A stretch of 64,000 nt of DNA. It comes from Escherichia phage vB_EcoS_HASG4. Both the position numbers and the translations under genes were made by a program. This document shows positions 3,321 through 64,000 of this stretch, in pieces. Each line of letters opens with the position of its first letter. The stretch's first letter is position 1. Below the pieces are notes generated by a model, which made no database searches, was not told the DNA's origin, and saw only the letters and a list, made by a program, of their open reading frames with translations. The stretch is taken from sequence record NC_100331.1, one strand, 5' to 3'.

Positions 3321-3796
3321 TAGTAAAAATTGATTTTGCTAATTTTTCTTGTTTACAATCCGCGATACGGAACAGTTAGGCTGCCCCATTAAGGGTTGTT
3401 TTAACTGTTACGTGTTAGTTTTTAAACAAATAATTAATAGAATACTTAGCGATCTACACCCCGTAGGAACCCTGGTAAGGCCTCGAAGCAACCTAGTGTG
3501 AGGTGGTTGTGAAGTGAGACGGGAAGAGTGAAAAACTCTGAGAAGTGATGACGTAAGGTATACTGCATCTAGTATGAGCTAGTACATGAAGCATTAGGTG
3601 AGCAAATCTGGCTTAGCGGCCATCCTCAAGGATTTGTGCGGTATAGTGAAGCGGCAGTGTAGCGTGAAAGTGGAAGTTGCCACCCCACTTCAGTATTTGC
3701 AATTAATTTGTTGAGAAATTGACAGTAACAGTTGTTCTATTCTTTCTGAATAGTCCTAAAGAAAACTTATTTCATTTCCAACACAGGAGTATTGTT

Positions 3797-50739: not shown

Positions 50740-52500
50740 TTAGGTAAGGCGTTGAACTGTTACTCGTAGTCTCGGTAAGAAAACTGCTGAACCTAAACTA
50801 ACGTGTAGTATAACACCTAATTCTGCATTACCATTACCAAGATTTTTTATTGTATATATAAAACTGTTTCTACTAAAAGCTCCGCTATCTGGGGTATATT
50901 TATAAGCAGAGGTAGTATGGAAAGGTACTAACTTTCCGGGAGGAAGAACTAAAATTTGATGAAATATAGCATCTCCTCCTGTATAACTTTGTGATTTTCT
51001 TCCTTGCACCTGAAAAACACTACCATTCCACGTATTTACTGGTAACCCAGCAACATTAAGGTTACCCGATAATATTTCACTAGTTAATATAACAGTAGAG
51101 TTATTATTTGGCAGACCTAATCCAACTGTTGCTAGGGGTTTATAAACATTACCCGTGCCTGGGTATGTCGGAGTAATATCGTTACCAATATAGGCGCTAG
51201 CCACATTACCAGATAATAGGCGTAAAGGTACTGATGAAGGTCCCCAGACAACACCATTCTCATTACCAATAGTATTATTATTAGAGTTTACATACCAAGT
51301 TTTACTAGCAGAGAACTTATAAATACTAAGTTGTGCTCTTGTACCACTATAGTTGACGGGTGCCCAGATAGATCCTTTATTGGAACATACAAATTCACAT
51401 CTTCCAGTAGTATCCCCAAACACCCCACCATGAGCAGCGTTTACTCCAATATACTCCATATCAGCACGAGAAGTTAGATTTCCTAAAGCATTCTGGTTAA
51501 TAAACTTCCAACCAGTAGTAGATAACTTAACCCCCTTAATAGTAAAGTTGGACGGAGAAATTATTATATCAGAACCCGTGAAAGGGTTACTAGAAACAGA
51601 CATACCACCGTTAGAATACCTTAGGTTCAGTACATACCATATAACTTTTGTAGGTGTTACTCCGTAGCCATCTTGAACTATTTTTGTATTAGCTGATTGA
51701 CTTACTAACTTAGTAGTAGAGCCTCTACAAACATATCTATACCCCCCATCACTAAAGTGCTGTACTATATTGCTAGGAATTGTTTGTTTGTATCCAGCAT
51801 ATCCCCTAATGTTAGAATTACATACATAAAACCAGTTATGGCCACGTTTACCAGCCCCCATTGGAGCCATCCAGTTAGGATCCCAATAGTACGTATCACC
51901 TGAAGATATAGGAACAGAAGTACTTCCTATAGGATACCCTAGTTGTTTGAAGGTTTCAGCTACAGTAGCACCTACAGGTGCACCACCCCCTGGTCTTACA
52001 ACACCATGGTAAGTACTATGTAGTACAGTACCACCTGTACCACTCCTAGCTATAGATTCTTCATGCCCTAGGGAACTATTATAGGAATAAGTACCTGAAG
52101 CTAGACTATTACCAAAAGCAAATCCAGCAGTTTGACTTAAACTAGCAAATGATCTAAAAGGGTCGGCCTGGGTGGAGGAAAGAAATTGCCCAACTTGAGA
52201 TTGAGTACCATTCAAAAAACCACGATGAGTACCATTAACTTCTATAGCTGTTAGTATAACCCTACCAGGATCATTGCTCTTTAGGTTAGCTATTACAGAA
52301 GGCATTTGGCATACAAAGAACCCATTACCCGCATTACTTAATGCACTCTCATAAGTGCTTTCTACTAATACGAAGGGCATATCAGAATGAAAAATAGTAT
52401 TAGTACTAGGGTTTTTATGAGCATTAATATCTCCACCACTAGCAGTATTTAGTGATAATACAGTTTTACCATCACTATATTTTCCAGCGAAAAAACCCAT
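50740..52500 (-). CDS. receptor-binding tail protein (pb5-like)
   Basis: 586-aa ORF divergent from the llp-like lipoprotein gene, the T5-type RBP/Llp arrangement as I recall it. Confidence 0.5.
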
Positions 52501-52525
52501 ATAATCTCCTATTATAAAAATGTAT

Positions 52526-52585
52526 TTGCTTTTATCTCTCTATTTTGCTATAATAGACTCATAAATTAGAAATGGAGAGATAAAT
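52526..52585 (+). promoter_or_regulatory. strong promoter for the lipoprotein gene (T5-like family)
   Basis: TTGCTT-N17-TGcTATAAT (52549-52554), then AGACTCATAAATTAGAAATGGAGAG. Confidence 0.5.
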
Positions 52586-52852
52586 ATGAAAAAGTTTGTG
52601 ATTGCACTAGTTGCCGCAGTTATGTTATCTGGTTGTGCACCAGCCCCCAAACCATTTTGTACGGGGTTTGTAAAATCTTTTGGTGGTGCGGGAGAGGAAC
52701 ATTACGGCCTCAAGGTTCAAAAAGTTCGTATTAAGGGAGATCGCTTTCCAGTAGTACAGCTCCGTACTAAATTTGGGTGGTGGGATCTCAGTCAGTTTGA
52801 TCTTAAATATGGTGATTGTAAATTTAAACTAGAGCAATCTAATTACCTGTAA
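52586..52852 (+). CDS. llp: lipoprotein, Llp-like (receptor-blocking superinfection exclusion)
   Basis: Signal peptide plus lipobox MKKFVIALVAAVMLSGC; small size; adjacent and divergent to the RBP gene. Confidence 0.6.
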   Translation: MKKFVIALVAAVMLSGCAPAPKPFCTGFVKSFGGAGEEHYGLKVQKVRIKGDRFPVVQLRTKFGWWDLSQFDLKYGDCKFKLEQSNYL

Positions 52853-53028
52853 TTAGTATAAAGCAAAAAGACATCCAAGTAAACTAAATTTTTTATTTCT
52901 TGGATGGTGTACTGGCAGAAACCACTATATGAGAAAAGTTGAAGTCCTTCTAGGAGTTCACAGGCACGGTTGGTTGTGCACAAATTACAGAATATTTCAA
53001 ATACCACATTTATAGGAGCATGAAAGAT

Positions 53029-53157
53029 ATGTCAAACAAAAGAAAGAGCAGACGTGGAGAAGTGTATGAGAGTTGGATAAATAGTTTTGGGTTCGGAACT
53101 ATCCTATTCTTTATTTTCGTAGGCTTTTGGTTAGCAGCTATGGCGGGGTGGATTTAA
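53029..53157 (+). CDS. small membrane protein 1 (42 aa)
   Basis: TAGGAG SD 10 nt upstream; basic N-terminus then one hydrophobic helix; stop overlaps next start (TAATG). Confidence 0.35.
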   Translation: MSNKRKSRRGEVYESWINSFGFGTILFFIFVGFWLAAMAGWI

Positions 53158-53264
53158 TGGAATGGGTAATTATTGCACTACTAGGGATTGTGATTATTGG
53201 GCAATGTATTTTAGATAATCACTTAGCTAGAATTGAGACCTTATTATTGGAGAAACGTAAATGA
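53157..53264 (+). CDS. small membrane protein 2 (35 aa)
   Basis: One hydrophobic helix (MEWVIIALLGIVIIG); overlapping stop/start with both neighbours. Confidence 0.3.
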   Translation: MEWVIIALLGIVIIGQCILDNHLARIETLLLEKRK

Positions 53265-53455
53265 TGGAAGTGGCAGCTACACTAATAGTAATACTAGTCT
53301 GGGCAATTTTCATTGTTTCTTATACCGCGTATGTTCGCCTAAAAACTCTAGAGGCCCAGGTAAAGCAGCAACAATTTGCTATAGAAAAATTAGTAGAACT
53401 GCAACGTTGTGATAGTACCCGTATTCTGCAAATTGAGAGGGAATTAGATGTTTAG
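53261..53455 (+). CDS. small membrane protein 3 (64 aa)
   Basis: N-terminal TM helix then coiled-coil-like tail; overlaps neighbours. Confidence 0.35.
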   Translation: MMEVAATLIVILVWAIFIVSYTAYVRLKTLEAQVKQQQFAIEKLVELQRCDSTRILQIERELDV

Positions 53456-53693
53456 TATTATAATTGCTTTTATTATCGGGATACTCGCGGGAGTTTTCGG
53501 AATGACTGCGGCAATCAATAAGCATCGTAAATATATTGCGGAAGTATCGCGGGAGATTGCGGAAAGGGAGCGGAAGTTTGACGAGAAACGTGCGGAGTTT
53601 GAGCGGGAGTGGTCGGATGGTTCTCGGGCGTCGCGGAAGAGGTTTCGTGAGTTCAGACCAGAACACAGGTTTGATGACCCTTCTATGCGCTAA
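53448..53693 (+). CDS. small membrane protein 4 (81 aa)
   Basis: N-terminal TM helix then highly charged Arg/Glu-rich tail (REIAERERKFDEKRAEFEREW). Confidence 0.35.
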   Translation: MFSIIIAFIIGILAGVFGMTAAINKHRKYIAEVSREIAERERKFDEKRAEFEREWSDGSRASRKRFREFRPEHRFDDPSMR

Positions 53694-53858
53694 TTGGGAA
53701 ATCTCGAAATTTCATAAGATTACACATGGAGGTGTGCTCACTGCCTCCGGCGGAAATACTTAGTCTGCTAACCGCCACCCTCCGTTACTATTACCATGCT
53801 AACTGTTTCACCCTGCAACCATTTTAATTGCAAGGTGAAACAATTTCAACTTTAATTG

Positions 53859-54593
53859 TTAGGCAACTTTTAATTTCTCAATATATTGTTGCGGGCTGCA
53901 ACTATATTCTGCGCGTTCTTCCTCGGTCATACTTTCCCAACATAATTGCAGGCGGTCGGCTAGAAATTGATAATCATTATCATCCTCAAGAGATTCATCA
54001 ATAAAGGTTTCACCTATCAATGTAACCCCAATCGATAGAATATCGTTAATAGCTTGCGCGTCCAGCGTTTTAAATCCGTATGATGCCGCCGCTGATAGTA
54101 CGCCTTTATGATCATCAATCATCGTAAAATCAGCGTTAGGATATAACTGTTTAAATAGCTCAAAATAATGGCTTTTATAAATAGCGTCTTTACTGTGGTA
54201 TATTTCGCTAACTTTATCAGCTTCAAAATATTTGTGTAGTGTATCGCGGGAAAACACGCGGATATTGCTTTTATCACGACCGCGCAAGCCTTGTTTGCGC
54301 AAGAAATAATAATCCGACTTGCTCATCAATCGAGCGGTGCAAATAATGTTTAACGTGTTAACGTCATTCATGCACTGGCGCATATATGTAACAAGCGGCA
54401 ATAGTGTATCTTGCATTATTAAATCATGTTTGCAGGCTTCATTTTTATACTTATTTAAATCTAAATTGCCCTCACTATCAAAGCAAGGCGCTACACGATG
54501 GAAAGAGTTAATGATAGTGCCATCCAGATCCCAAATCATGACGCGGGAAATATGTGGGAAGCTGCGGGAAATATTCATAATAGCTTTATTCAT
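53859..54593 (-). CDS. dmp: HAD-family 5'-deoxyribonucleotidase (dmp-like)
   Basis: N-terminal MIWDLDGTIINS carries HAD motif I DxDGT; 244 aa, the size I recall for T5 Dmp. Confidence 0.6.
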   Translation of the reverse strand: MNKAIMNISRSFPHISRVMIWDLDGTIINSFHRVAPCFDSEGNLDLNKYKNEACKHDLIMQDTLLPLVTYMRQCMNDVNTLNIICTARLMSKSDYYFLRKQGLRGRDKSNIRVFSRDTLHKYFEADKVSEIYHSKDAIYKSHYFELFKQLYPNADFTMIDDHKGVLSAAASYGFKTLDAQAINDILSIGVTLIGETFIDESLEDDNDYQFLADRLQLCWESMTEEERAEYSCSPQQYIEKLKVA

Positions 54594-54672
54594 TTGTTAC
54601 GTTCTCCATTAAAGGGATTAGATTAATTCAGCATTACCCGCTATTTATAAGCGGGTAATAATAAATTAACTA

Positions 54673-55068
54673 TTAAAGACCATAAGCCAACGCATCAGCG
54701 ATAAAACTAACATCCTCACCGGATACGCTGGAACGAATCCCGGCACAAGTATATACCTTTGCGCTGATCAATTGATCATCGAGGCAAGCGGGGCAAGGCG
54801 CAACCACTGCGAAAGCTAAACCGGATTTTACCGCGTCAATAATAATTGTTTCCTGCTTCATCGTGTCAACATAAACACCTTTTGCTTTAATATGGCTGGT
54901 TAGTTTACCTTGCATATATGCAAACGTTGTAACTTGCATTGCATCATTGAAATCTAACAATTCATCAATAACGTGCCCCGCCTCGACGTGGTAACGTTCA
55001 CCATTAGAATAAACCAGAACAATGGAAGACTGAGCGCGGTCAAATGGAATGCGATTAGATTTAGCCAT
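54673..55068 (-). CDS. hypothetical protein
   Basis: Intact ORF with the conserved leader upstream; contains HVE and PCPAC but with non-canonical spacing. Confidence 0.4.
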   Translation of the reverse strand: MAKSNRIPFDRAQSSIVLVYSNGERYHVEAGHVIDELLDFNDAMQVTTFAYMQGKLTSHIKAKGVYVDTMKQETIIIDAVKSGLAFAVVAPCPACLDDQLISAKVYTCAGIRSSVSGEDVSFIADALAYGL

Positions 55069-55105
55069 GTTTATAACTCCAGTTAGTTTAATAAGGGGGT
55101 TTAAT

Positions 55106-55363
55106 TTACTTGATAATAATCTGCATTTGATATGGCGTTAATTCACCATTTACGGGTAAATTATTATCACTCAACCACTCATAAAAAGCGTCATCATCGT
55201 CAAAGGGAACAATATCATTATCACGATAATCGACCGTAATAATCCCATCTGTATTAGTTTTGGCGGCTAGGATAGGTCCGAAGCTGTAAACTTTATCGGA
55301 TTCCATTTCATCCGGTGAAATAAATGCTTTTTCGTCCAGCGTTTTGGGTAATGTAACTTTCAT
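55106..55363 (-). CDS. hypothetical acidic protein
   Basis: 85-aa ORF, Asp-rich. Confidence 0.35.
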   Translation of the reverse strand: MKVTLPKTLDEKAFISPDEMESDKVYSFGPILAAKTNTDGIITVDYRDNDIVPFDDDDAFYEWLSDNNLPVNGELTPYQMQIIIK

Positions 55364-55420
55364 TCTAATTTAGCTCCTGTAATAGCGGCTATATTTCAAG
55401 CCGCTAGGGGAATAATTTAA

Positions 55421-57085
55421 TTACGCGAAAAATTTACCATTCTTAAAGTCAATCAAGGTGCGCTGACCGTTTGCATAGGTAATAACATGCGTTTGTGTCC
55501 AGCTTGACGCGCCAACGTTATAACCCATGTCCAGACTACCAGACACGCCAGCGGTGTATACGCCGCCGTAAATACTGGCGGTATGAGTGTGCCCCGTGTT
55601 TAATTTGCCCAATTTCTTAAACTGTTTCGGATTGCCACGGCTGCCGTTTATGCCGTTGTGACCGTGTACGCCGCATTCAATGCCTGCAATCTTGAAAGAT
55701 TGATCAGTGGTCAGAAAAATAGCGTTAAACTCACAACCTGCAACCTTACGCAGCGCATAATCTAGCACGTTGAAAGTATCGTCTTTTTCTGCAATAGCTC
55801 CATAAATCGCAGCATTAAGGCGGTGATATAGTTCCGCGTTTGCTGGGTCGTCTTTAATGTTAGCATTACGATCATCCAGCCAACGGGATAGCGCCAAATC
55901 GTGGTTTGATTCAACAATGATCGTTTGAGCAAAATCGCGCTCCATCGATTCCAGCACGCGCCCGGTATCGATAAGATCATCCAGAACTTTATCACGTCCG
56001 GCGGCGTATTGTTTCGCTAGGAATACACCGGAGGCACGATTATGATGATTGCGTGATGTAAAATCATGCACGTCATGGACGAATTGATATTTTGGCTTGA
56101 GAATATCAAGCAAGCTATTTTCCCCAGCCCATGATGCAACGGCGCAAGCGTCATCCAATTTTTCGGCGTGGACGTCGCCATATTGTAAACCTAAAACGTG
56201 CCCCGATGTTTCATAGCATCCGGCGGGAGTAGCGCAAACATTCAGATCATAAAATACGCCGCTTTCATCCATCGTTTCAAGCTGGCGAACAAAAAATTCT
56301 CCGTCTTCGTCGAACTCGACAATAAGCGCACCGAAGTTATGCAGCGCCTCGGCCTTTTGTCCTGCTTTCTGCTGGATGTAGTTTTTTAACGTTGCCGTTC
56401 CGGTTGAATACATACGGCGCACAATTTCACCTTTTAAAGCTGGCACGCTTTCAGCGGTAATTTTAGCCGCTCCGATTGCCAGACCTTCGAGATTAAGCGC
56501 GGTTGCAGTTTCAGCGAATCCAGAAAGCGGATAATCTGCGGTGGGCAAAACATTAATTTCAGCCATGAAAGCAAAACGGCGATTGTTTAAAAATACGTTT
56601 TTGCTGCAAATATATTTATCAAACGCAGAATCATATTTGATTCCGTCTGCCCCTTCCCCATTTTGAAAACCGTTTTTATTATAAATATACTTAGAAACAA
56701 GCAAATCAGCGCCAATAAATTGGGCATATTGTTCAAGCGAGGCTAAAAAGTTTTTATGCGGGAAAGTATTATTCTGAATCGATGTAATAATAAAGCGTTT
56801 GCCTTGTTTTACTTCCCATTGCTCCACCGTGCTAGAAATAACTCCAGCGGCTTCAGGGCGGTCATCGTTTTTTATGGCTTTTGCTGTTTTTGCCGCTTTT
56901 GGTTTCGCTGGTTTATTTGCTTCCAACCAGTCGCAGATAGCGGTCGAGTGTTTTGTAGTATCGTATACCGCTTTTGATATATCGTCGCAGACTTCCAGTT
57001 TAGTAGCGCGCAGACGTTTACCATAGAAATTAAAGTCAGCGGCAAGGTTGAGAATCTGGGCTTGTTTTTCTGCGGAAATAATCAT
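55421..57085 (-). CDS. A1: A1-like pre-early protein, calcineurin-like metallophosphoesterase
   Basis: Phosphoesterase-type motifs GDVH, SNHD, GHTHT; 554 aa, close to what I recall for T5 A1; conserved leader upstream. Confidence 0.6.
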   Translation of the reverse strand: MIISAEKQAQILNLAADFNFYGKRLRATKLEVCDDISKAVYDTTKHSTAICDWLEANKPAKPKAAKTAKAIKNDDRPEAAGVISSTVEQWEVKQGKRFIITSIQNNTFPHKNFLASLEQYAQFIGADLLVSKYIYNKNGFQNGEGADGIKYDSAFDKYICSKNVFLNNRRFAFMAEINVLPTADYPLSGFAETATALNLEGLAIGAAKITAESVPALKGEIVRRMYSTGTATLKNYIQQKAGQKAEALHNFGALIVEFDEDGEFFVRQLETMDESGVFYDLNVCATPAGCYETSGHVLGLQYGDVHAEKLDDACAVASWAGENSLLDILKPKYQFVHDVHDFTSRNHHNRASGVFLAKQYAAGRDKVLDDLIDTGRVLESMERDFAQTIIVESNHDLALSRWLDDRNANIKDDPANAELYHRLNAAIYGAIAEKDDTFNVLDYALRKVAGCEFNAIFLTTDQSFKIAGIECGVHGHNGINGSRGNPKQFKKLGKLNTGHTHTASIYGGVYTAGVSGSLDMGYNVGASSWTQTHVITYANGQRTLIDFKNGKFFA

Positions 57086-57183
57086 GGTAATAAAACTCCA
57101 TTAAAGGGATTAAAAAACGTTTGTTATTGGCAAATATTGCCAAATATAACGCCTATTATTTGAGGCGTTATAATTTGCAATAT

Positions 57184-57399
57184 TTAACTAATCGGCATCA
57201 GGCTAGAACTAACACCACAAGCAACGGCGGCAATAAAACAAATAAGACCTAAACGCTTTGCTAACTTAGATTTACGTTTAAAATAATATGAATCCAGATC
57301 ATTTTGGAAATAAGCAAACAATAACGAGGCCGCTACAATAAATAATCCTAGAATGAGGGATTCAGTAGGGTAAAAGATCATTTTAATAACTCCAGTCAA
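57184..57399 (-). CDS. small membrane protein (two hydrophobic segments)
   Basis: 71-aa ORF between the A2-like and A1-like genes. Confidence 0.35.
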   Translation of the reverse strand: MTGVIKMIFYPTESLILGLFIVAASLLFAYFQNDLDSYYFKRKSKLAKRLGLICFIAAVACGVSSSLMPIS

Positions 57400-57437
57400 A
57401 GGAAATTATAGTGGGGAGTATTCCCCACTAATTAAAT

Positions 57438-57845
57438 TTATTCACCTGCGGCCTGTTTTACTTCATCGGCAACGCCCAATAGTTGCGCCACGGCGTCCAA
57501 CGTTTCTAATTTTGCGCTTTCCAGTGATGCCAGATCGTCAACGTCTTTGATAATACCGGAATCGATGGCATGTTTTGCAATAACGCGCACATAATGCGCT
57601 TTGCGGATAGAACTGCCGCCGCCAACCTTGCGAGGTTTATCGCTTTTCTGATACGCTTTCGCGCTGGTCAATTTTGAGCGAACGGACACGGGAGAAGCCG
57701 CACCTACTGCTTTCGCGATCTCTTTCAAGCCGTCGCTATTTGCGAAATCTAAACCGTTTTCATTGATTAGCTGCTGATACATGGTAACAGCCTGCTGGGT
57801 GTTTTCTTCATTCCAAGAAAATTTTACGGTTTTAACGTTAGTCAT
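57438..57845 (-). CDS. A2: A2-like pre-early protein
   Basis: 135-aa ORF immediately upstream of the A1-like gene; size and position match T5 A2 as I recall it. Confidence 0.45.
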   Translation of the reverse strand: MTNVKTVKFSWNEENTQQAVTMYQQLINENGLDFANSDGLKEIAKAVGAASPVSVRSKLTSAKAYQKSDKPRKVGGGSSIRKAHYVRVIAKHAIDSGIIKDVDDLASLESAKLETLDAVAQLLGVADEVKQAAGE

Positions 57846-57943
57846 GGTAAAAACTCCTATTAGTTTAATTTAAGGGATAAGATTAACATAATGTTAATCG
57901 TTATATACCCCGAACTACTGGGGTATATAAAGTTAACACTAAA

Positions 57944-58195
57944 TTACAAAACAGCTTCCCATTTTTCGTTGCGTTGAACAACCTTTACAACATCGCCGGA
58001 TTTAACGCGAACGCTAAAAACGGTTTTGCCGTTGTTACTGCGTTCCGTTTCAGCGTATACCGCGTCGATTGTATCGAACGGCATAAGCGCCGCACCTTTA
58101 ATGCGTTCGGCCTTTCCGGTTAACTCATCCGTTTTAGTAACGAAAGGAATAAAAACGGATTGACCAATTTTTGGCGCGGTAATAACGTTTTGCAT
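57944..58195 (-). CDS. hypothetical protein
   Basis: 83-aa ORF with the conserved leader and AGGAG SD. Confidence 0.4.
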   Translation of the reverse strand: MQNVITAPKIGQSVFIPFVTKTDELTGKAERIKGAALMPFDTIDAVYAETERSNNGKTVFSVRVKSGDVVKVVQRNEKWEAVL

Positions 58196-58422
58196 AGTAT
58201 AAACTCCTAGTTATTTGGGGATTATTCCGCATTACCTGCTAGAAGGTAGCAGGTAATAAGTAACAATCCGCTCGCCAGTTTAACCAATTTAAAGAACTCC
58301 ACGTAGGCCGCTATATCCCAGTTAGGGGGCGGGATGCATTATGGTAAGCACCGACCGTCAAATTTTATCAAGTTATCGCTCTTATCGAACTGAGTACATC
58401 TTAAAACCTATCGGCTAGGTTG

Positions 58423-58626
58423 TCAAACGGTTTTTTGCAATTTTTTATGATTTTCTTTCAAGTCAATCATAATATTTCGCCAGATCATTTCTAGACCTTG
58501 CTGGCGACCTCTCTTGTACTGCGTGAATCGGTATTTTACCGATCTTTGCGCTACTGTCAACAAATTTTTTGTTTTGCTATCTAGTGCCTTAATAGGCTTG
58601 CCAGTGATCAATAAAGTTTGTTTCAT
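58423..58626 (-). CDS. hypothetical small basic protein (uncertain)
   Basis: 67-aa ORF inside the large intergenic region; weak SD. Confidence 0.2.
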   Translation of the reverse strand: MKQTLLITGKPIKALDSKTKNLLTVAQRSVKYRFTQYKRGRQQGLEMIWRNIMIDLKENHKKLQKTV

Positions 58627-59256
58627 ATCGTCGATTCCTTATAATAGATAAGTTTACCGCCGATAGGCTTTAAGATGTACCCAATTTTTAAAGAGCGTGG
58701 CGGTAAACTTCCCGCCGTGTAGTTCGTCATTGCCGCCCTACGTGATAAATAATAGGGGATTCCCGAAAATGGCGCAACCTTATTTTTGTAAAGAAACGTA
58801 AAGACAAAATTCACCGGACGGCGTGCGGTGACGGCCTAAAATTAAAAGAAACGGGCGCGCGAATACCACAAAACAAAGCAAATAGGCAAGTAATTTTTTC
58901 ATTTATATTTGCTTTCCCCTACTTGACAAAATCTAAAAAGCTCGTGGTAGCGATAAACGGCTTATCCCCTTATGATGGGATGGCTAAAAACTTTATTGCG
59001 TTCTAGGGCGTTTTAGGCGGCTCATTTTCGATTTAACAAATATCTAACAAAAGCAAAATTGAAAAATAGTTGAAAAAGGTCTTGACTTTTAAAAATCAAG
59101 GGGCATTGCATTAATTTATAAAATAAATTAATTGACTTTTATTTGTTGTTGTGTATTAGAAAGATAGCAAACTAATAATTACTAGAATGATAATCATGCT
59201 GGTGGATTGTAACGGCTTAAATTATTAGCAGACTACTAATCCCGGAAAATCTCATT

Positions 59257-59310
59257 AGCCAACTAACTGTTTCATAAGTTATAATATACATATAAATTAA
59301 TGAGAAATAA
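59257..59310 (+). promoter_or_regulatory. promoter-like element of the T5 family (weak -35)
   Basis: GTTATAAT with TATAAT at 59280-59285, then ATACATATAAATTAATGAGAAA. Confidence 0.35.
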
Positions 59311-59419
59311 TAATTATAAGAAAACGTAACCGATAGGAATAATAACTATAAAAATAATCACTACTATAATAATAACTATAAGAAACTATCGGCCTAAGTG
59401 AGAACCACTATCATTTAAG

Positions 59420-59440
59420 TTATCCACAAAGTTATCCACA
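59420..59440 (+). promoter_or_regulatory. two perfect DnaA boxes (TTATCCACA) in direct repeat
   Basis: TTATCCACA at 59420-59428 and 59432-59440, just downstream of an AT-rich repeat tract. Confidence 0.6.
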
Positions 59441-59794
59441 GCACTTTTTGACTTGACACGATATGCGGCGATACAAGGACTTTTGCTCAGACTTACCCAC
59501 AGGTTATCCTACTGTATAAATATACAAGGTAAAAAGATAGTGTTAACAACTGCAATCAATTTTAAGCGGCCTAAATCGCTTTCTAACGAGCAAAACGCTG
59601 TAGGGTAATATTAAAGTAAAGCCTCAACGTGTCGGCCTGGTGGCTTCGCCGTGTTTTGCTCTTTACTATACCGCTGCGCGGTTAGCATAAAAATAAGCGT
59701 TAGGCAAGGAAAATAAAAAGGTAAAATAATATTTGCCCCTAGAAAGAAAATACCTTTATCATTCACTCACCGATTAACGAGGGAGGCCGAACAA

Positions 59795-60787
59795 ATGAGG
59801 CTTTATAAACCAGATAACGCAACCGTCTTAAAAGGTGCATTGCGCAACCTGCTGGATGGTAGCAGAACAACCAGCATTAAACATTTTGTTTTCAATATTG
59901 AAACACTTCATCGTAATTTTCTTGATGATTACGATGCTTATAATATGAATAGTTTTCTACCGTTATATAATCAAGGGGCAACGCTTGTTTTATATAATCA
60001 GGAATCTCACTTGCTTACTAGTCGAGGGCCAGATACTGATTTTATTATAGTGAAAGGCAGTACAGTAAAAGCCTATGATGCGGGGGCGGGCTTAGAAGTT
60101 TTCACGATAGAAAATTATGAGCCTTATGATAAGGATCTTTATGACGTAGAAAATTTTCTCGATTCATTTTGGCGTTATTTATCAATTGGGTGGAATCGGT
60201 CGGATTATGACGGGTATCGTTTTGCGGCTGTAATGGCTTTTGATGATAACGGTAATTTTTTGTTACCGTCGGAATTATACCCGTATGTATATAATGATTT
60301 AATAGAGGAGGCTGGTTTTACTTTCTGGAAAGATGAAGATCAGCCTATTGACAATATAGAAAACCATGCTGTAAATTCTAACACTCAAAGCGTTAACACT
60401 CAAACTACTGAAAACAAAGGAAAAAATACCATGACCAAGATCGCTAATATCGTTGCCGCTAATAAATCCGCTGTTGTAAATGCTGCAAAACTGGAAGCGG
60501 GTAAAATTGCACTGACTCAAATCACGAAAGTAGCGGCTAAAAAAGCGCCGTTTATGATTAAAGGTTATATTGATACGCCGATTGGTCGTGTAGTGATCGC
60601 TAACCTATTGAGTGTAGCGGTTGACCAGTACGCCCCAACTAACCAAAAGGCAAAAGCGGTAGCAGGCGCGGCTATGGAAGCGGCAATGCTGGAAATGGTG
60701 CAAAGTTTTAACATCGCTGAAATGATTGATGAAATGGTAAAAGGTATCGATATTTCTACTTTTACCACTAACACCGAAAGCGAGTAA
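59795..60787 (+). CDS. hypothetical protein
   Basis: 330-aa ORF with GAGG SD; first gene of a rightward cluster. Confidence 0.45.
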   Translation: MRLYKPDNATVLKGALRNLLDGSRTTSIKHFVFNIETLHRNFLDDYDAYNMNSFLPLYNQGATLVLYNQESHLLTSRGPDTDFIIVKGSTVKAYDAGAGLEVFTIENYEPYDKDLYDVENFLDSFWRYLSIGWNRSDYDGYRFAAVMAFDDNGNFLLPSELYPYVYNDLIEEAGFTFWKDEDQPIDNIENHAVNSNTQSVNTQTTENKGKNTMTKIANIVAANKSAVVNAAKLEAGKIALTQITKVAAKKAPFMIKGYIDTPIGRVVIANLLSVAVDQYAPTNQKAKAVAGAAMEAAMLEMVQSFNIAEMIDEMVKGIDISTFTTNTESE

Positions 60788-60852
60788 TAATATTTAGCGG
60801 GGATTATTTCCCCGCTTTACTATTCCCTTGTTAACTAATAGGAGGCTAACTA

Positions 60853-61347
60853 ATGGCTGAGGAAAAATACGGCTTCTCGCTAGGGGAAGTGAGCACGGCT
60901 AAACACGATATGATCATTTTAGTTGATTGTCATACTGGCTATTGCGGGGAAGGGAACACCGAAGAATATTTTGTTCCTGCTGGTACGGATCTGGACGCTT
61001 TAGCTCACGAAATGGCTATGGATAATGCTTCTCGTTTTGGCAGCGATGGCTATGAAGACGAGGATACTGGCGAATGGTATGAAAATGAAAACGTATACGC
61101 AAGTCTTTATCATTATCAGTTAAGTAAATCCGGCACATATGTAAATGGCGGCGATCCTATTAATTCCGTTGTGAAATTAATTATTAAATATGGTGGCGTC
61201 GAGATAATTGATAACAAAGCGGTAATATATGCAAACCGATTAAAACAGCTTGTTTATATTCCTGATAATACCCGATGGGAGGAATACGCTGTTTTGCATG
61301 ACGAATTGAAACGATGTTTCAATATTGAAGCCCTACAAGTAGTCTAA
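60853..61347 (+). CDS. hypothetical acidic protein
   Basis: 164-aa ORF with AGGAGG SD; Asp/Glu-rich. Confidence 0.45.
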   Translation: MAEEKYGFSLGEVSTAKHDMIILVDCHTGYCGEGNTEEYFVPAGTDLDALAHEMAMDNASRFGSDGYEDEDTGEWYENENVYASLYHYQLSKSGTYVNGGDPINSVVKLIIKYGGVEIIDNKAVIYANRLKQLVYIPDNTRWEEYAVLHDELKRCFNIEALQVV

Positions 61348-61452
61348 TGTAAAGTTTTGTAAAGGTCGCCTTTTATGGTGGCCTTTTTTGTTATAATGCC
61401 TTTACACCAAAACGGTGGATTGAAAATTTTCCCAAAAATTTGGAGGCTTAAA

Positions 61453-61683
61453 ATGGTTGCATACTCTTCTGCTAGTCATCTGTTTACCGCGCAAGGCTGG
61501 GTATCTAATCGCGTCATTATTCATGAAATGGTGCAGGAGTTCGGCATTGCTAAAACGTATAATACCATTCAGGAACTATATAACGCCGATAAAATCGATC
61601 AGCAAACGGCTGGCTTTTTGCTGGATACCCTGAAAGCTGAACATTGCACTAAAAAGCAAGCTGCAAAAATTGTCTTAATGTAA
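61453..61683 (+). CDS. hypothetical protein
   Basis: Internal ATG at 61453 with GGAGG SD; the track's 61375 start lacks an SD. Confidence 0.4.
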   Translation: MVAYSSASHLFTAQGWVSNRVIIHEMVQEFGIAKTYNTIQELYNADKIDQQTAGFLLDTLKAEHCTKKQAAKIVLM

Positions 61684-61736
61684 TTAATAACGGGGGGGGG
61701 GTATTATATCCCCCGATAACTAGGAGGCTATCACAA

Positions 61737-61886
61737 ATGGTTATTTTTCGAGCTATTTTAGCGGGTATCTTGGGCGCTATTTTATCGTTATTTGCAATAG
61801 CTTTCGGTGTTCACGCCGTTATTATCGGCGCGGGTATCGCCGCATTTTCTTATCTGCTGGGCTGCATGACTAGTAAAGGAGAATAA
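61737..61886 (+). CDS. small membrane protein (49 aa)
   Basis: TAGGAGG SD 9 nt upstream; two hydrophobic segments; preceded by a G10 tract. Confidence 0.4.
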   Translation: MVIFRAILAGILGAILSLFAIAFGVHAVIIGAGIAAFSYLLGCMTSKGE

Positions 61887-61888
61887 AA

Positions 61889-62101
61889 ATGATTCGTAAC
61901 GTTTCCCTTGCACGTTCGAAAGGCTTTAGGCTGGTGGACGTTAACACGTTCGAGCGTGAAGATTGTAAAATCGAATATGTAGCACGTAACAAAAATGCCT
62001 TTCGTGTTACTGAGAAAAAATTCGACAAGCGCGGCAACGTGATCGCTGAAACAGTTAAACATTTTGCCACCTTTTATGCTGCGTTTCGTGGGGTATTATA
62101 A
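61889..62101 (+). CDS. hypothetical protein
   Basis: 70-aa ORF with GGAG SD, immediately after the previous stop. Confidence 0.4.
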   Translation: MIRNVSLARSKGFRLVDVNTFEREDCKIEYVARNKNAFRVTEKKFDKRGNVIAETVKHFATFYAAFRGVL

Positions 62102-62102
62102 A

Positions 62103-62447
62103 ATGGTTATTTATGAAGGCAACCGCTTTGTTACTAATTGCCGTCCGGCATTACTAGCAAACTACTTAAATCAGCTTTCCCCAGCTTATAAGGGCGTTAT
62201 TAATATTTATGAGGGCAAGGCGCATTATAAAATCAATGCGGTCGTTGCCCGTGAACTAGCGTTTCAATTTTTGACCTTTGCATCTTGTGACGTTCAGGTC
62301 ATGGGTGAGGCATTAATTGCAGAAAATGAAGATGATTTTATTAATATTTTCCGCAAGATATGCACCGAGCGCCTGATCATGAAAGGCGCTTATATTCAAT
62401 CCACTGCGGATAGTATTGAAACAGCGTTTCGAAAGGTGGCACAATGA
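62103..62447 (+). CDS. hypothetical protein
   Basis: ATG at 62103 directly after the upstream stop; 114 aa. Confidence 0.4.
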   Translation: MVIYEGNRFVTNCRPALLANYLNQLSPAYKGVINIYEGKAHYKINAVVARELAFQFLTFASCDVQVMGEALIAENEDDFINIFRKICTERLIMKGAYIQSTADSIETAFRKVAQ

Positions 62448-62602
62448 AAAAGTTTTTAATAGCTGGTATGTTTCCTTTGTTGCCTTATGTAATTTGCTGG
62501 GCTTTATATGCTCATGGTGCTAGTGTTCCCGGTGTGGCTTCATTTGGTGTATCGGCTGGTTTTCTAACCGGACTATTGGCAAGCGTATATTTACGCAAAT
62601 AA
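62444..62602 (+). CDS. small membrane protein (52 aa)
   Basis: ATG overlapping the upstream stop; two hydrophobic segments. Confidence 0.35.
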   Translation: MKKFLIAGMFPLLPYVICWALYAHGASVPGVASFGVSAGFLTGLLASVYLRK

Positions 62603-62620
62603 TTAATAACGGGAGTTATT

Positions 62621-62824
62621 ATGAGCAATAAAATTATTGTAACCAAAATCAGTACAATGGTTGATGTTTTTTACGTGCCCGATACGCCGGAGAATCGGCA
62701 AGCGGTTGAGCGTGGCGAGTATGATAAAGTGATTTATGATCACGATGGTTATTATCAGCATTTGGCGGATTCCTACGGGGAGGAGGAAAAAATCACGCAT
62801 CGACTACCGGAGGAGGATTTATGA
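62621..62824 (+). CDS. hypothetical protein
   Basis: 67-aa ORF with GGGAG SD. Confidence 0.4.
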   Translation: MSNKIIVTKISTMVDVFYVPDTPENRQAVERGEYDKVIYDHDGYYQHLADSYGEEEKITHRLPEEDL

Positions 62825-62925
62825 AACGATGGTTTAATCACTGGTATAAACGGTTTTTAGTACGCCGTCGCAAGTCTAGGCATCAAGATGAGTGGAGGGA
62901 GTGGGCAAAGCGTAACGGTTGCCCA
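62821..62925 (+). CDS. hypothetical small basic protein (uncertain)
   Basis: 34-aa Arg/Trp-rich ORF overlapping the previous stop. Confidence 0.2.
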
Positions 62926-62975
62926 CTACTATAATAATCACGGGGCGCAACTAGTAAGAAGTGCCCCCAATTCTC

Positions 62976-62996
62976 AAATGAGAATCATTCTCATTT
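62976..62996. repeat. perfect 21-bp palindrome AAATGAGAATCATTCTCATTT
   Basis: Read directly; the two 10-bp arms are exact reverse complements around a central C. Confidence 0.8.
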
Positions 62997-63190
62997 GACC
63001 GCGCCCGCGATGATTAGCCTGCTAATGGTTAGGGTGTTACGTGTCGCCTTGTGTGATCGTTAGCGTGCTAACTAATTTTCAAGCCTCCTCCAATTTTCCC
63101 CTTGTTTTAGTATCCCCGCCAAAATTAAACGCGTTAGAATGCGATTCAGGACGTTTTAAGCCTATATTAGAATTATTCACTGCATAGGAA

Positions 63191-63210
63191 TACTGTATAT
63201 TTATACAGTA
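63191..63210. promoter_or_regulatory. LexA-box-like palindrome TACTGTATATTTATACAGTA
   Basis: Fits CTGT-N8-ACAG with an all-AT spacer; one mismatch to TACTGTATATATATACAGTA. Confidence 0.5.
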
Positions 63211-63222
63211 GAATAACCTGGG

Positions 63223-63301
63223 GATAAGTCTGTGGATAACGCTTCAAAATGGCTAGGGTTCTGTCAAGTCAAATCGTGCTGTTGATAAGTCTGTGGATAA
63301 C
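63223..63301. repeat. exact 18-bp direct repeat GATAAGTCTGTGGATAAC x2, each with a DnaA box (TGTGGATAA)
   Basis: Copies at 63223-63240 and 63284-63301. Confidence 0.75.
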
Positions 63302-63332
63302 TTAAATAACAGTGTTTCTCACTTCCGTTTTT

Positions 63333-63500
63333 AAATGCGAATCATTATCATTCGCATTTCACTAGCTAACCGATAATCACTCCACTTTTTAAATGAGAAT
63401 CATTTCACTTCTTGAATAGTTCTCATTCCCTTTCTTAAATGCAAATCATTATCATTCGCATTTCACTTTTTAAATGAGATTGATTCTCATTATCATTCGC
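63333..63500. repeat. cluster of palindromes built from AAATG(C/A)GAAT half-sites
   Basis: AAATGCGAATCATTATCATTCGCATTT (63333-63359), AAATGAGAA...TTCTCATT (63391-63427), AAATGCAAATCATTATCATTCGCATTT (63437-63463), AAATGAGATTGATTCTCATT (63472-63491). Confidence 0.75.
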
Positions 63501-63533
63501 ATTCAGGCGAGCAAGGCAATTGCCCTGCGCTTT

Positions 63534-63757
63534 TGTGCAAATCCGACATTTGCCCCCATGGATTACGCGTGGGCATGTATGTGCGAATCCGACAATTTTT
63601 GGTAGTGTGCAAATCCGACCCGAAAAATTTTTATAGTGTGCGAATCCGACAATGAATTTTCCTAAAAACTCCAGCAATCACGAACTGCGTTCGAATCCTG
63701 TGGAATTAGCTAGAGTATGTGCAAATCCGACATGTGTTGAGCTGTGCGAATCCGACA
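63534..63757. repeat. six direct 15-bp iterons TGTGC(G/A)AATCCGAC(A/C)
   Basis: Copies start at 63534, 63580, 63606, 63637, 63718, 63743; spacings 46, 26, 31, 81, 25 bp; a degenerate copy (CGTTCGAATCC) near 63690. Confidence 0.8.
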
Positions 63758-64000
63758 AGATTTTTGTGACTTCGATTGGAGGGTGTGTGATTGTATAGGT
63801 TTGAGGAGAAGATGAGAGAGCGAGAGAAATTTTGGGACTAGAAGGATGTGGGCGCAAGATTGGTGCGGAGCACCTGATTTGCGGGGATTTTGGGGGAGAG
63901 TTGAGATAATTTGGGAAGATTTGAGATAGGTGCAGAAAAAGTAAAATTTTATTAGCTAAATGGAGCAAAATAGCTTGACAAGTGAAAATTCTTGTGGCTC

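What the first reader, a model, noticed from the sequence alone, without database searches (positions are those of the whole stretch)
53029..53693. Operon of four translationally coupled small single-pass membrane proteins downstream of llp
Four ORFs of 42, 35, 64 and 81 codons, each with an N-terminal hydrophobic helix, are linked by overlapping stop/start codons (TAATG, ATGA), with an SD only before the first. The arrangement suggests a membrane complex (exclusion, lysis control or host-envelope interference). Codon usage is more GC-rich than the adjacent late genes.
Basis: seen in the sequence. Interest (0 to 1): 0.55.

Follow-up and report, generated by a model that had tools for sequence, protein, structure and literature searches.

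The report
T5 mini membrane genes, CGG array
The four tiny membrane-protein genes are real but have been annotated in phage T5 since 1994 and look dispensable in one laboratory screen; the unexpected part is that the last gene also carries a row of CGG triplets spaced one DNA turn apart, about 100 bases before the genome end, making it a candidate for T5's unknown end-recognition signal.

Summary
The window is a T5-like coliphage, 100% identical over the region tested (52500-53900) to vB_EcoS_EASG3. The four ORFs exist at the stated coordinates. They are orthologues of T5 orf1-orf4 (GenBank X75922, 1994; T5.159-T5.162; PHROGs 8596, 6369, 5851, 6447).

They are under purifying selection (median dN/dS 0.09-0.40). 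Their 1-, 4- and 8-nt start/stop overlaps are conserved in 39 T5-like loci.

- Every ORF has its own Shine-Dalgarno sequence.
- The o1 helix is C-terminal.
- Only o4 is GC-rich.

o2 (2 loci) or o3 (9 loci) is cleanly missing in natural isolates. A CRISPRi-ART screen scored all four "Not Fit" in T5. An obligate four-part complex is therefore unlikely, and the function remains unknown.

My best guess is an accessory early inner-membrane module, with all soluble parts facing the cytoplasm.

New here: o4's odd codon usage comes from 13 CGG triplets on one strand, on a 10.5-nt lattice (R=0.92). The lattice is independent of reading frame and unique in the genome. It ends about 100 bp before the terminal-repeat boundary. 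Klebsiella Sugarlandviruses have the same array inside an unrelated gene. It may be a genome-end processing signal.

The parts
52586..52852 (+). llp, the BF23/BtuB-type receptor-blocking lipoprotein. Context gene, not part of the conserved four-ORF block.
   Evidence: PHROG 1119 'Cor superinfection exclusion', E=1.8e-26, and a lipoprotein signal. Annotated as llp in DT57C and BF23. Only 30% identical to T5 Llp.
52872..52906 (.). Hairpin in the llp-o1 spacer. On the - strand it is followed by a T-run (terminator-like). On the + strand it is a weak stem with a large loop.
   Evidence: Inverted repeat I6. Folds: - strand -14.3 kcal/mol, z=-1.9; + strand z=-1.2. No + strand promoter match of at least 9/12 between llp and o1.
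53029..53157 (+). o1 (42 aa) = T5 orf1 / T5.159. Tail-anchored membrane protein with a basic N-terminal tail, an invariant RGEVY(E/D)(S/A/E)W juxtamembrane motif and a C-terminal TM helix.
   Evidence: PHROG 8596, E=4e-32. AGGAG lies 10 nt upstream. Median dN/dS 0.09. Present in 39/39 loci. Homologues only in T5-like phages.
53157..53264 (+). o2 (35 aa) = T5 orf2 / T5.160. N-terminal TM helix plus a short DNHLARIE tail. Its start overlaps the o1 stop (TAATG).
   Evidence: PHROG 6369, E=2e-25. SD GGGGUGGA. dN/dS 0.14. Absent in phiR2-01 and L037.
53261..53455 (+). o3 (64 aa) = T5 orf3 / T5.161. N-terminal TM helix plus a helical tail ending in the invariant QxERELDV. ATGA overlap with o2.
   Evidence: PHROG 5851, E=3e-35. 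SD GGAGA at 7 nt. dN/dS 0.40. Absent in 9/39 loci, where the o2 stop is fused to the o4 start.
53448..53693 (+). o4 (81 aa) = T5 orf4 / T5.162. N-terminal TM helix, then a long E/R/K-rich helix and a variable basic tail. 8-nt overlap with o3.
   Evidence: PHROG 6447 'membrane protein', E=6e-48. SD GAGAGGG at 6 nt. AF2 predicts one helix over residues 2-69, pLDDT 73. Present in 39/39 loci, damaged in 3. No relatives outside T5-like phages in 1.84 billion representatives.
53477..53636 (+). Helically phased CGG array embedded in o4. 13 CGG at spacings of 11, 10, 11, 30, 11, 10, 11, 22, 11, 10, 11 and 9 nt; none on the opposite strand.
   Evidence: Rayleigh R=0.92 at 10.5 nt, P~5e-6. 13 of 20 protein-compatible CGG sites are used against an 8.5% background, P=5e-10, and the phasing is not explained by the protein. 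Unique in the 120-kb genome. Conserved in 39 loci. Also present in Klebsiella Sugarlandviruses.
53707..53736 (.). Conserved terminus box AAATTTCATAAGATTACACATGGAGGTGTG. The left boundary of the right terminal repeat (the physical left genome end) falls at 53735.
   Evidence: Three records place the terminal-repeat start at 53735: BF23 (determined with PhageTerm), T5 and EASG3. The box is conserved from T5 to Klebsiella Sugarlandvirus and was located.
53801..53845 (.). 18-bp inverted repeat between the convergent o4 and dmp genes. Probably a bidirectional terminator that ends the o1-o4 transcript inside the repeat.
   Evidence: I1, 89% complementary. Folds: - strand -29.9 kcal/mol, z=-5.5; + strand z=-3.1. 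Annotated as a repeat in X75922.
53859..54593 (-). dmp (5'-deoxynucleotidase), the first gene of the terminal repeat, convergent with o4. Context gene.
   Evidence: Annotated as dmp in BF23, T5 and others.

Best explanation
What is shown:
- The four ORFs are genuine genes, the orthologues of T5 orf1-orf4 (T5.159-T5.162).
- They form one rightward unit in the conserved backbone between the swappable receptor module (oad/llp) and the right terminal repeat.
- Each start has its own Shine-Dalgarno sequence inside the preceding gene.
- The starts overlap the preceding stops by 1, 4 and 8 nt, and these overlaps are conserved across genera.

What is inferred:
- Translation is probably coupled.
- Transcription probably reads through from the early llp promoter and ends at the 53801-53845 hairpin.
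- Each product is a single-pass inner-membrane protein.
- By the positive-inside rule, o1 is tail-anchored (N-terminus inside). o2-o4 are Pf3-coat-like (N-terminus outside, C-terminus inside).
- All soluble parts therefore face the cytoplasm.

Committed guess on function: the proteins are an accessory module made early, with o1 and o4 as the constant core and o2 and o3 as optional parts. I think it acts on the cytoplasmic face of the inner membrane of the infected cell. The most likely role is a second layer of exclusion or envelope protection alongside Llp, not lysis.

Independently of the protein, the o4 DNA carries 13 CGG triplets on a 10.5-bp lattice on one strand. The array ends about 100 bp before the conserved box where the genome end is cut. 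o4 is therefore dual-use sequence.
For: Genes and their identity:
- Identity to T5 orf1-4.
- Conservation, dN/dS and preserved overlaps.
- SD strengths.
- TM segments and flanking charges.
- o4 predicted as one long helix.
- Family confined to T5-like phages.

Accessory nature:
- Natural loss of o2 or o3, and damaged o4 in 3 loci.
- CRISPRi-ART 'Not Fit' for T5.159-162 (PMC11879866 source data).

Not lysis:
- T5 has a separate lysis cassette.

Positional parallels:
- Tiny TM-protein genes occupy the same slot in Klebsiella Sugarlandvirus (2 genes) and Providencia Priunavirus (5 genes).

Transcription (inferred):
- No + strand promoter match between llp and o1.
- None is annotated in the T5 records.

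CGG array:
- for the window and its relatives.
- for the Klebsiella counterpart and the terminus box.
Against: - No experiment or homology links any of the four proteins to exclusion. The link to llp is adjacency only, and the ORFs lie outside the exchanged receptor module.
- A cytoplasm-facing topology is not what one expects for blocking periplasmic steps of DNA entry.
- The topology itself is only a positive-inside inference, and it is ambiguous for o2 (3+/3- after the helix).
- The BF23 record predicts a separate promoter between llp and o1.
- 'Not Fit' in the T5 screen is weak evidence. The tail gene N4 and the replication genes D10 and D13 were also scored Not Fit.
- No translation data were found.
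Confidence: 0.4

Rival explanations
1. The CGG array is the functional core of the locus. It is the assembly platform for the T5 terminase or end-processing machinery, and it positions the cut in the conserved box about 100 bp downstream. The small membrane genes are merely accessory genes in a permissive slot that the signal happens to overlap.
For: - One-strand, 10.5-bp phased array, unique in the genome.
- Phasing is independent of reading frame and protein sequence.
- Conserved with site turnover on the same lattice in 39 loci.
- The same array sits at the same distance from the same terminus box inside a non-homologous gene in Sugarlandviruses.
- The left end is packaged first (PMC3517423).
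- End formation in T5 is described as poorly understood (PMC13595956).
Against: - No binding or cutting data exist.
- The array is absent from Providencia, Aeromonas and Vibrio T5 relatives.
- It lies on the side of the initiating cut that is not packaged.
- Synonymous-site conservation is only moderately raised: 0.89 against 0.75.
- No matching array lies at the other repeat boundary.
Confidence: 0.3
2. The proteins are host-takeover or anti-defence factors. They would bind a host inner-membrane protein from the cytoplasmic side, for example a membrane-anchored defence effector, a protease, or division or stress machinery, rather than excluding other phages.
For: - Predicted cytoplasm-facing soluble parts.
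- Very strong conservation of the o1 juxtamembrane motif.
- Dispensable on a laboratory K-12 host.
- Variable gene content between isolates.
- Sub-threshold resemblance of o4 to LapA, ZapG/YhcB and FtsL-type N-terminally anchored helices.
Against: - No hit in PADLOC, Pfam or NCBIfam above cut-off.
- No escape-mutant or interaction data were found.
- The resemblances are what any TM-plus-charged-helix protein would give.
Confidence: 0.2
3. The ORFs are regulators of lysis timing (antiholin-like) or spanin-like envelope disruptors.
For: - Small bitopic proteins with helical tails.
- Weak PHROG matches of o4 to Rz-like spanins (E=0.16 and 0.35).
Against: - T5 has its own holin, endolysin and two Rz-like spanin genes elsewhere.
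- No lipoprotein partner or lipobox.
- The tails are predicted to be cytoplasmic and are far shorter than i-spanin periplasmic domains.
- The matches are not significant.
Confidence: 0.08
4. The unusual o4 codons are a translational device rather than a DNA signal. Rare CGG codons and SD-like GGAG would slow ribosomes at codons 30-63, giving the N-terminal helix of this very short protein time to reach the membrane.
For: - CGG is 8 of 545 Arg codons in large phage genes but 5 of 13 in o4.
- The only tRNA-Arg in the part of the genome I looked at reads AGA.
- The cluster lies where the TM helix would emerge from the ribosome (own knowledge of pause-assisted targeting).
Against: - Only 5 of the 13 lattice CGGs are CGG codons. 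The others straddle codons as GCG-G, TCG-G, ATC-GG and TTC-GG.
- The strict 10.5-nt phase and the one-strand bias have no translational rationale.
- The conserved core is CGG, not the SD-like part.
- The Klebsiella array sits 260-440 nt into its gene.
Confidence: 0.1
5. The ORFs are not translated, and the region is purely cis-acting or non-coding.
For: - No proteomic or ribosome-profiling evidence was found.
- Three of the ORFs are shorter than 65 codons.
- A DNA-level signal does overlap o4.
Against: - dN/dS is well below 1 for all four.
- Conserved ATG, SD and overlaps.
- Indels are in-frame: 21 and 51 nt, and whole-gene losses keep the junctions intact.
- The hydrophobic helices are preserved despite 44% identity in o3.
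Confidence: 0.03

Closest known systems
T5 orf1-orf4 downstream of llp (GenBank X75922, 1994; T5p155-158 in AY692264; T5.159-T5.162 in NC_005859; PHROGs 8596, 6369, 5851, 6447)
   Same: Orthologues: 88-95% identity, with the same order, lengths and overlaps.
   Different: Nothing of substance. The window phage carries the BF23/BtuB-type llp upstream instead of T5's FhuA-type. No function has been assigned in any record or paper searched.
Small inner-membrane superinfection-exclusion proteins (T4 Imm and Sp, HK97 gp15, P22 SieA)
   Same: Phage-encoded, small, membrane-anchored and non-essential. Here they are encoded next to a known exclusion gene (llp).
   Different: No sequence similarity. 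The soluble parts are predicted to be cytoplasmic. There are four coupled genes instead of one. No exclusion phenotype has been tested. Comparison from my own knowledge.
Pf3-coat-type and PspB / LapA / YhcB(ZapG) / FtsL-type N-terminally anchored helical proteins
   Same: Architecture of o2-o4: almost no N-terminal tail, one TM helix, then a charged cytoplasmic helix. o4 gives sub-threshold hits to LapA_dom (22.8 bits, cut-off 28), ZapG-like and FtsL.
   Different: All hits are below the curated cut-offs. They are likely composition or architecture matches, not homology.
Rz-type i-spanins
   Same: N-terminal TM helix followed by a helical region.
   Different: Much shorter, no o-spanin lipoprotein partner, predicted cytoplasmic tail. 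T5 already has Rz-like spanins T5.044 and T5.045.
Repeat arrays flanking genome-end cut sites: T7 SRL/SRR short repeats beside the terminal repeat, lambda cosB R-sites, SPP1 pacL (own knowledge)
   Same: For the CGG array: a reiterated short motif within a few hundred bp of the terminase cut. In T7 the array also lies just outside a direct terminal repeat.
   Different: The motif is only a trinucleotide on a strict 10.5-bp lattice, on one strand, and is buried in a protein-coding gene. No binding protein is known. No counterpart exists on the other side of the repeat.

Membership tests
T5 orf1-orf4 / T5.159-T5.162 gene set | Sequence orthology of each of the four proteins | tested here: met
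   tblastn identities to T5 of 95, 94, 88 and 91%. PHROG E-values 4e-32 to 6e-48 over the full profile length.
T5 orf1-orf4 / T5.159-T5.162 gene set | Same order, position (between llp and the right terminal repeat) and overlapping junctions | tested here: met
   Overlaps of -1, -4 and -8 match T5, and the repeat starts 42 nt after the o4 stop in both.
Translationally coupled operon | Stop/start overlap or close abutment conserved in relatives | tested here: met
   Junctions are -1 / -4 (or -1) / -8 in nearly all of the 39 loci. They are re-formed as -1 in all but one of the loci where a gene is missing; L037 (-13) and L017 are exceptions.
Translationally coupled operon | Downstream translation depends on upstream translation | not testable with these tools
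   Each ORF has its own SD of about -6.4 kcal/mol, so independent initiation is also possible.
Single-pass inner-membrane proteins | One hydrophobic helix of about 17-21 residues, conserved in relatives | tested here: met
   Kyte-Doolittle 2.2-2.8 over 17 residues. The helices are retained in all homologues. AF2 predicts a helix for o4.
Single-pass inner-membrane proteins | Membrane insertion and topology | not testable with these tools
   Only a positive-inside inference from flanking charges.
Holin / antiholin | Match to a holin family; location in the lysis cassette | tested here: not met
   No holin family in Pfam or PHROGs. The T-type holin and endolysin lie elsewhere in the genome.
Two-component spanin (Rz/Rz1) | i-spanin with a long periplasmic coiled coil, plus an o-spanin lipoprotein (lipobox) gene embedded, overlapping or adjacent | tested here: not met
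   No lipobox in any ORF. PHROG Rz-like hits have E=0.16 and 0.35 only. T5.044 and T5.045 are the annotated spanins.
Known superinfection-exclusion families (Cor/Llp, Imm, Sp, SieA) | Sequence membership | tested here: not met
   Only llp itself hits the Cor family. o1-o4 hit none.
Known superinfection-exclusion families (Cor/Llp, Imm, Sp, SieA) | Exclusion phenotype on expression | not testable with these tools
   No published test was found.
Type I toxin-like small hydrophobic peptides (Hok, Ldr, TisB, ShoB) | Family match and a cognate antisense sRNA | tested here: not met
   No Pfam hit. The only Rfam result is an ohsC-like hit at 24.7 bits against a gathering score of 50, on the dmp terminator hairpin.
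Anti-phage defence proteins (PADLOC) | Profile match | tested here: not met
   No hit at E<=1.
Terminase-recognition repeat arrays (cosB / pacL / T7 SRR type), for the CGG array | Reiterated motif close to the mature genome end | tested here: met
   13 CGG at 53477-53636, 101-258 bp left of the repeat boundary at 53735.
Terminase-recognition repeat arrays (cosB / pacL / T7 SRR type), for the CGG array | Conserved in relatives independently of the coding context | tested here: met
   Present in 39 T5-like loci and in three Sugarlandviruses inside a gene with no detectable homology to o4. Absent in three more distant genera.
Terminase-recognition repeat arrays (cosB / pacL / T7 SRR type), for the CGG array | Bound by small terminase and required for cutting or packaging | not testable with these tools
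   No data. A 2026 review calls the T5 mechanism 'less understood'.
T5 single-strand nick sites (consensus R/GCGCRGG) | Consensus on the nicked strand | tested here: not met
   The consensus occurs on the - strand at 22074 and 63524, matching the 64.8% and 99.5% nicks. The array is on the + strand with a different motif.

The most novel reading that the evidence does not exclude
The phased CGG array inside o4, together with the conserved box AAATTTCATAARRTTACACRTGRAGGTGTG, could be the long-missing genome-end recognition signal of T5-type phages.

In this reading, a protein binds one face of about 15 helical turns of DNA. Small terminase or another end-processing factor is the likely candidate. 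Binding sets the cut that creates the left end, and so initiates packaging or duplication of the 10-kb terminal repeat.

The signal would be written into all three reading-frame phases of a membrane-protein gene. Sugarlandviruses maintain it in a gene with no detectable homology to o4.
Probability: 0.3. Interest if true: 0.75.

Novelty: already known. Interest (0 to 1): 0.45.

Why it matters
The four ORFs themselves change little. They are long-annotated hypothetical genes, and showing that the core is o1 plus o4, that all tails probably face the cytoplasm and that lysis is unlikely only narrows future experiments.

The CGG array matters more. How phages with long exact terminal repeats recognise and cut their ends is still described as poorly understood (PMC13595956). 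A sharply defined sequence feature that is unique in the genome and conserved next to the cut site gives a concrete target. It can be recoded synonymously, moved, or tested for binding.

It is also a clean example of a cis-acting DNA signal hidden inside a coding sequence that shows up only as 'odd codon usage'.

Tried and rejected
Protein homology and structure
- Searches for o4 and o1 and an exhaustive profile search for o4 found only T5-like phages.
- Pfam, NCBIfam, PADLOC and PHROGs gave no functional family above cut-off.
- The AF2 model of o4 is a single long helix. It is too featureless for a fold search, so none was run.
- A PspB-like reading of o3 rested on a BLAST match in an 8-sequence database, using a PspB sequence I recalled from memory. 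Pfam's PspB model did not hit. Rejected as evidence.

Explanations for the CGG array that failed
- T5 nick sites: wrong strand and wrong motif.
- RNA structure: z=+0.26.
- A known RNA family: no Rfam hit near threshold.
- A recent tandem duplication: TRF finds none, and only degenerate direct repeats exist.
- An overlapping gene: the in-phase antisense frame is open, but it has no conserved start.
- Alpha-helical heptad periodicity of the protein: the potential CGG sites are unphased (R=0.45) while the realised ones are phased (R=0.92), and the lattice extends into the TM segment.
- A second array at the right boundary of the repeat: none found.

Other dead ends
- The promoter-like match at 53433-53461 inside o3/o4 loses its -10 element in Epseptimaviruses. 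Treated as chance.
- Literature searches for T5.159-162, T5p155-158, T5 transcriptomes and escape mutants returned nothing on these genes.
Full report
**Identity of the window.** Bases 52500-53900 are 100% identical to Escherichia phage vB_EcoS_EASG3 (MK373799.1), a Tequintavirus. They are 92-94% identical to BF23, DT57C and many T5-like Salmonella and E. coli phages. The neighbours are:
- the receptor-binding protein gene oad/pb5 (50740-52500, - strand);
- a BF23/BtuB-type llp (52586-52852, +);
- the right terminal repeat, which begins with dmp and A1.

| ORF | Coordinates | Length |
|---|---|---|
| o1 | 53029-53157 | 42 aa |
| o2 | 53157-53264 | 35 aa |
| o3 | 53261-53455 | 64 aa |
| o4 | 53448-53693 | 81 aa |

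The overlaps are 1 nt (TAATG), 4 nt (ATGA) and 8 nt. Each ORF has one strongly hydrophobic helix.

Three details are wrong:
- All four starts have a Shine-Dalgarno duplex of -6.3 to -6.6 kcal/mol at 4-9 nt. That is as good as llp's, and it is conserved in relatives. The first ORF is not the only one with an SD.
- The o1 helix is C-terminal (residues 22-42), behind a basic tail.
- Only o4 is GC-rich (0.48). o1-o3 are at or below the window mean of 0.39.

**The ORFs are already known.** They are orf1-orf4 of the 1994 T5 llp record X75922. Other names are T5p155-158 in AY692264 and T5.159-T5.162 in the numbering of the CRISPRi-ART paper. Each has its own PHROG (8596, 6369, 5851, 6447), with no assigned function beyond a generic 'membrane protein' label on 6447. 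About 440 phage records contain the region. No paper in the library mentions any of these locus tags.

**They are real genes.** I compared 39 loci in all, 11 from GenBank, 27 from IMG/VR and the window, spanning Tequintavirus and Epseptimavirus.
- The ATGs, SDs and junctions are preserved.
- Median pairwise dN/dS is 0.09 (o1), 0.14 (o2), 0.40 (o3) and 0.30 (o4).
- o3 keeps its helix-plus-tail architecture at only 44% identity.
- The small internal deletions seen in o4 (21 and 51 nt) are in frame, and whole-gene losses keep the junctions intact.

Homology to T5 starts only about 40 nt before o1, while oad and llp are unrelated between T5 and this phage. The four genes therefore belong to the conserved backbone, not to the exchangeable receptor module.

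**Gene content argues against an obligate four-part complex.**
- o1 and o4 are present in all 39 loci.
- o2 is cleanly missing in 2 loci (phiR2-01 and L037).
- o3 is cleanly missing in 9 loci, with the neighbouring stop/start junction re-formed.
- o4 is truncated or internally deleted in 3 loci.
- The o4 tail after residue 67 exists in at least three unrelated versions.
- HNH homing endonuclease genes insert just after o4.

In T5, translational knock-down of each of the four genes was scored 'Not Fit'. That is weak evidence, because the tail gene N4 and the replication genes D10 and D13 were scored the same way.

**What the proteins look like.**
- By flanking charges, o1 is tail-anchored with its basic N-terminus in the cytoplasm.
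- o2-o4 have almost no N-terminal tail, with an acidic residue in o2 and o3, and positive charges after the helix. This is the Pf3-coat arrangement: N-terminus out, C-terminus in.
- AF2 predicts o4 as one helix from residue 2 to 69, with pLDDT 73.
- No ORF has a lipobox.
- Nothing reaches a curated cut-off in Pfam, NCBIfam or PADLOC. The sub-threshold o4 hits (LapA, ZapG, FtsL) share only the anchor-plus-charged-helix architecture.
- Homologues of o1 and o4 are confined to T5-like phages, even in an exhaustive profile search of 1.84 billion representatives.
- T5-like phages have a separate holin, endolysin and spanin cassette.

**Expression (inferred).**
- I found no + strand promoter match between llp and o1.
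- The T5 records annotate none there. The BF23 record predicts one.
- Read-through from the early llp promoter is the simplest reading.
- The strong inverted repeat at 53801-53845 (z=-5.5 on the - strand and -3.1 on the + strand) is the likely bidirectional terminator shared with dmp.

**Function (committed guess).** I think this is an accessory early module acting at the cytoplasmic face of the inner membrane. o1 plus o4 would be the core. The most likely role is a further layer of exclusion or envelope protection next to Llp. A host-takeover or anti-defence role is the main rival, and lysis control is unlikely. None of this is shown.

**The unexpected finding: a phased CGG array.** The GC-richness of o4 is not ordinary codon bias.
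- CGG makes up 8 of 545 Arg codons in 23 large genes of the window, but 5 of 13 in o4. GCG is 6 of 8 Ala codons in o4 against about 10% elsewhere.
- The underlying pattern is 13 CGG triplets on the + strand between 53477 and 53636.
- Their spacings are 11, 10, 11, 30, 11, 10, 11, 22, 11, 10, 11 and 9 nt, with none on the - strand. All lie on a 10.5-nt lattice (Rayleigh R=0.92, P about 5e-6).
- They occupy all three codon phases and encode IG, AG, FG, AA, AE, R and SD, including inside the TM helix.
- Of the 20 positions where the o4 protein would allow a CGG, 13 are used, against 8.5% in other genes (P=5e-10).
- The used sites are phased while the allowed set is not (R=0.45). Fewer than 1 in 50,000 random subsets match the observed phasing.
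- The array is the strongest such signal in the whole 120-kb genome (Rayleigh z 10.2, next best 3.3). It is also the top result among all 64 trinucleotides in a 1.2-kb stretch around the operon (52800-54000).
- All 39 T5-like loci have it. 36 carry 10-17 CGGs and the three with a deleted or truncated o4 region carry 6-10; R is mostly 0.8-0.93.
- Sites lost in one lineage are replaced by new ones on the same lattice.
- Synonymous divergence between the genera is about half that of o1-o3 (pS 0.32 against 0.58-0.71).
- Third-position identity is 0.89 at lattice sites against 0.75 elsewhere in o4.

**Where the array sits.** The left boundary of the right terminal repeat, which is the physical left end of the genome, maps to 53735 in three independent records. 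BF23's was determined with PhageTerm. The array therefore ends about 100 bp before the cut. The cut lies in a box, AAATTTCATAAGATTACACATGGAGGTG|TG (53707-53736), that is conserved as far as Klebsiella Sugarlandviruses.

**The Klebsiella counterpart.** Three Sugarlandviruses also carry a phased CGG array.
- It has 12-13 CGGs with R=0.89-0.93, on the same strand relative to dmp.
- It ends 95-117 bp before the equivalent point.
- It lies in the C-terminal half of a 151-aa membrane protein with no detectable homology to o4.
- It again exceeds what that protein sequence predicts (P=0.0016 for phase, 2e-3 for number).

Providencia, Aeromonas and Vibrio relatives lack it. The Providencia phage does carry five tiny TM ORFs in the same slot.

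**What the array is not.**
- It is not T5 nick sites. The consensus R/GCGCRGG occurs on the opposite strand at 22074 and 63524, matching the 64.8% and 99.5% nicks.
- It is not RNA structure (z=+0.26) or an Rfam family.
- It is not a tandem duplication.
- It is not an overlapping gene with a conserved start.

**What the array might be.** A one-face, one-strand array over about 15 helical turns beside the end-forming cut is most simply a protein-binding or DNA-wrapping platform for end processing. The left end is packaged first (PMC3517423), and the T5 mechanism is still called poorly understood (PMC13595956). The nearest analogues, from my own knowledge, are the T7 SRL/SRR repeats, lambda cosB and SPP1 pacL. 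I put about 0.3 on this reading. A translational-pause explanation is weaker, because only 5 of the 13 CGGs are codons.

**Verdict.** The objects are already known hypothetical genes. The suggested complex and function are untested, and the four-part complex is partly contradicted.

Noticed in passing
window 53477-53636 (+ strand), inside o4: 13 CGG triplets on a strict 10.5-nt lattice, on one strand only and in all three codon phases. Unique in the genome and conserved in 39 T5-like loci. Three Klebsiella Sugarlandviruses have a counterpart inside a non-homologous gene. The array ends about 100 bp before the terminal-repeat boundary.
   Followed up: yes
window 53707-53736; L042 (Klebsiella pzk-kv7) about 2785-2815: A conserved 30-bp box, AAATTTCATAARRTTACACRTGRAGGTGTG, spans the exact left boundary of the terminal repeat (53735). 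It is shared by Tequinta-, Epseptima- and Sugarlandviruses and is probably the end-cut site.
   Followed up: partly
L009 (phiR2-01), L037; L012, L020, L024, L026, L027, L034, L035, L038, L039: o2 or o3 is missing as a precise cassette, with the neighbouring stop/start junction re-formed. o2 and o3 share an 'ME + helix + (H/Y)xxRI(E/Q)' pattern, so they may be paralogues that recombine.
   Followed up: partly
window about 53645-53693 (o4 codons 67-81); L008, L011, L025, L028, L031, L033, L041: The o4 C-terminal tail exists in at least three unrelated versions. HNH homing-endonuclease genes (about 500 nt) insert right after o4, so this is a recombination or homing hot spot next to the repeat boundary.
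   Followed up: partly
window 22074-22080 and 63524-63530 (- strand): The published T5 major-nick consensus GCGCRGG occurs on the - strand at positions equal to about 65.3% and 99.6% of the genome. These match the classical 64.8% and 99.5% nicks.
   Followed up: partly
window 53801-53845: A strong 18-bp inverted repeat lies between the convergent o4 and dmp genes (fold z=-5.5). It is a likely bidirectional terminator lying inside the terminal repeat. It gives a sub-threshold Rfam hit to ohsC (24.7 bits against a gathering score of 50), which I take as chance.
   Followed up: partly
window 52872-52906: The hairpin in the llp-o1 spacer is followed by a T-run only on the - strand. It could stop leftward read-through from the repeat's pre-early unit before it reaches llp and oad.
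   Followed up: no
window about 52989: Homology with T5 starts here. Everything to the left (llp, oad) is the BtuB-type receptor module, unrelated to T5's FhuA-type module, so the module boundary lies about 40 nt upstream of o1.
   Followed up: partly
L043 (Providencia PSTCR5) 3322-3870; L042 (Klebsiella) 2871-3554: Other Demerecviridae genera carry non-homologous clusters of tiny single-helix ORFs in the same slot between the receptor-binding gene and dmp: five of 29-46 aa in Providencia, and two of 74 and 151 aa in Klebsiella.
   Followed up: partly
window 53735-64000 versus MK373799.1 1-10266 (L014): The repeat copy in the window and the left repeat of the deposited record first differ at repeat position 1030 and then go out of register. 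A1 is 554 aa in the window and 584 aa in the record's left copy. Either the two repeat copies are not identical, or the window comes from a slightly different assembly.
   Followed up: no
L046 (EASG3 12401-56900): This 44.5-kb stretch, which holds the phage's tRNA-gene cluster, lists a single tRNA-Arg (anticodon tct, reads AGA); the rest of the genome was not checked. So no phage tRNA found here serves the five CGG codons of o4.
   Followed up: no
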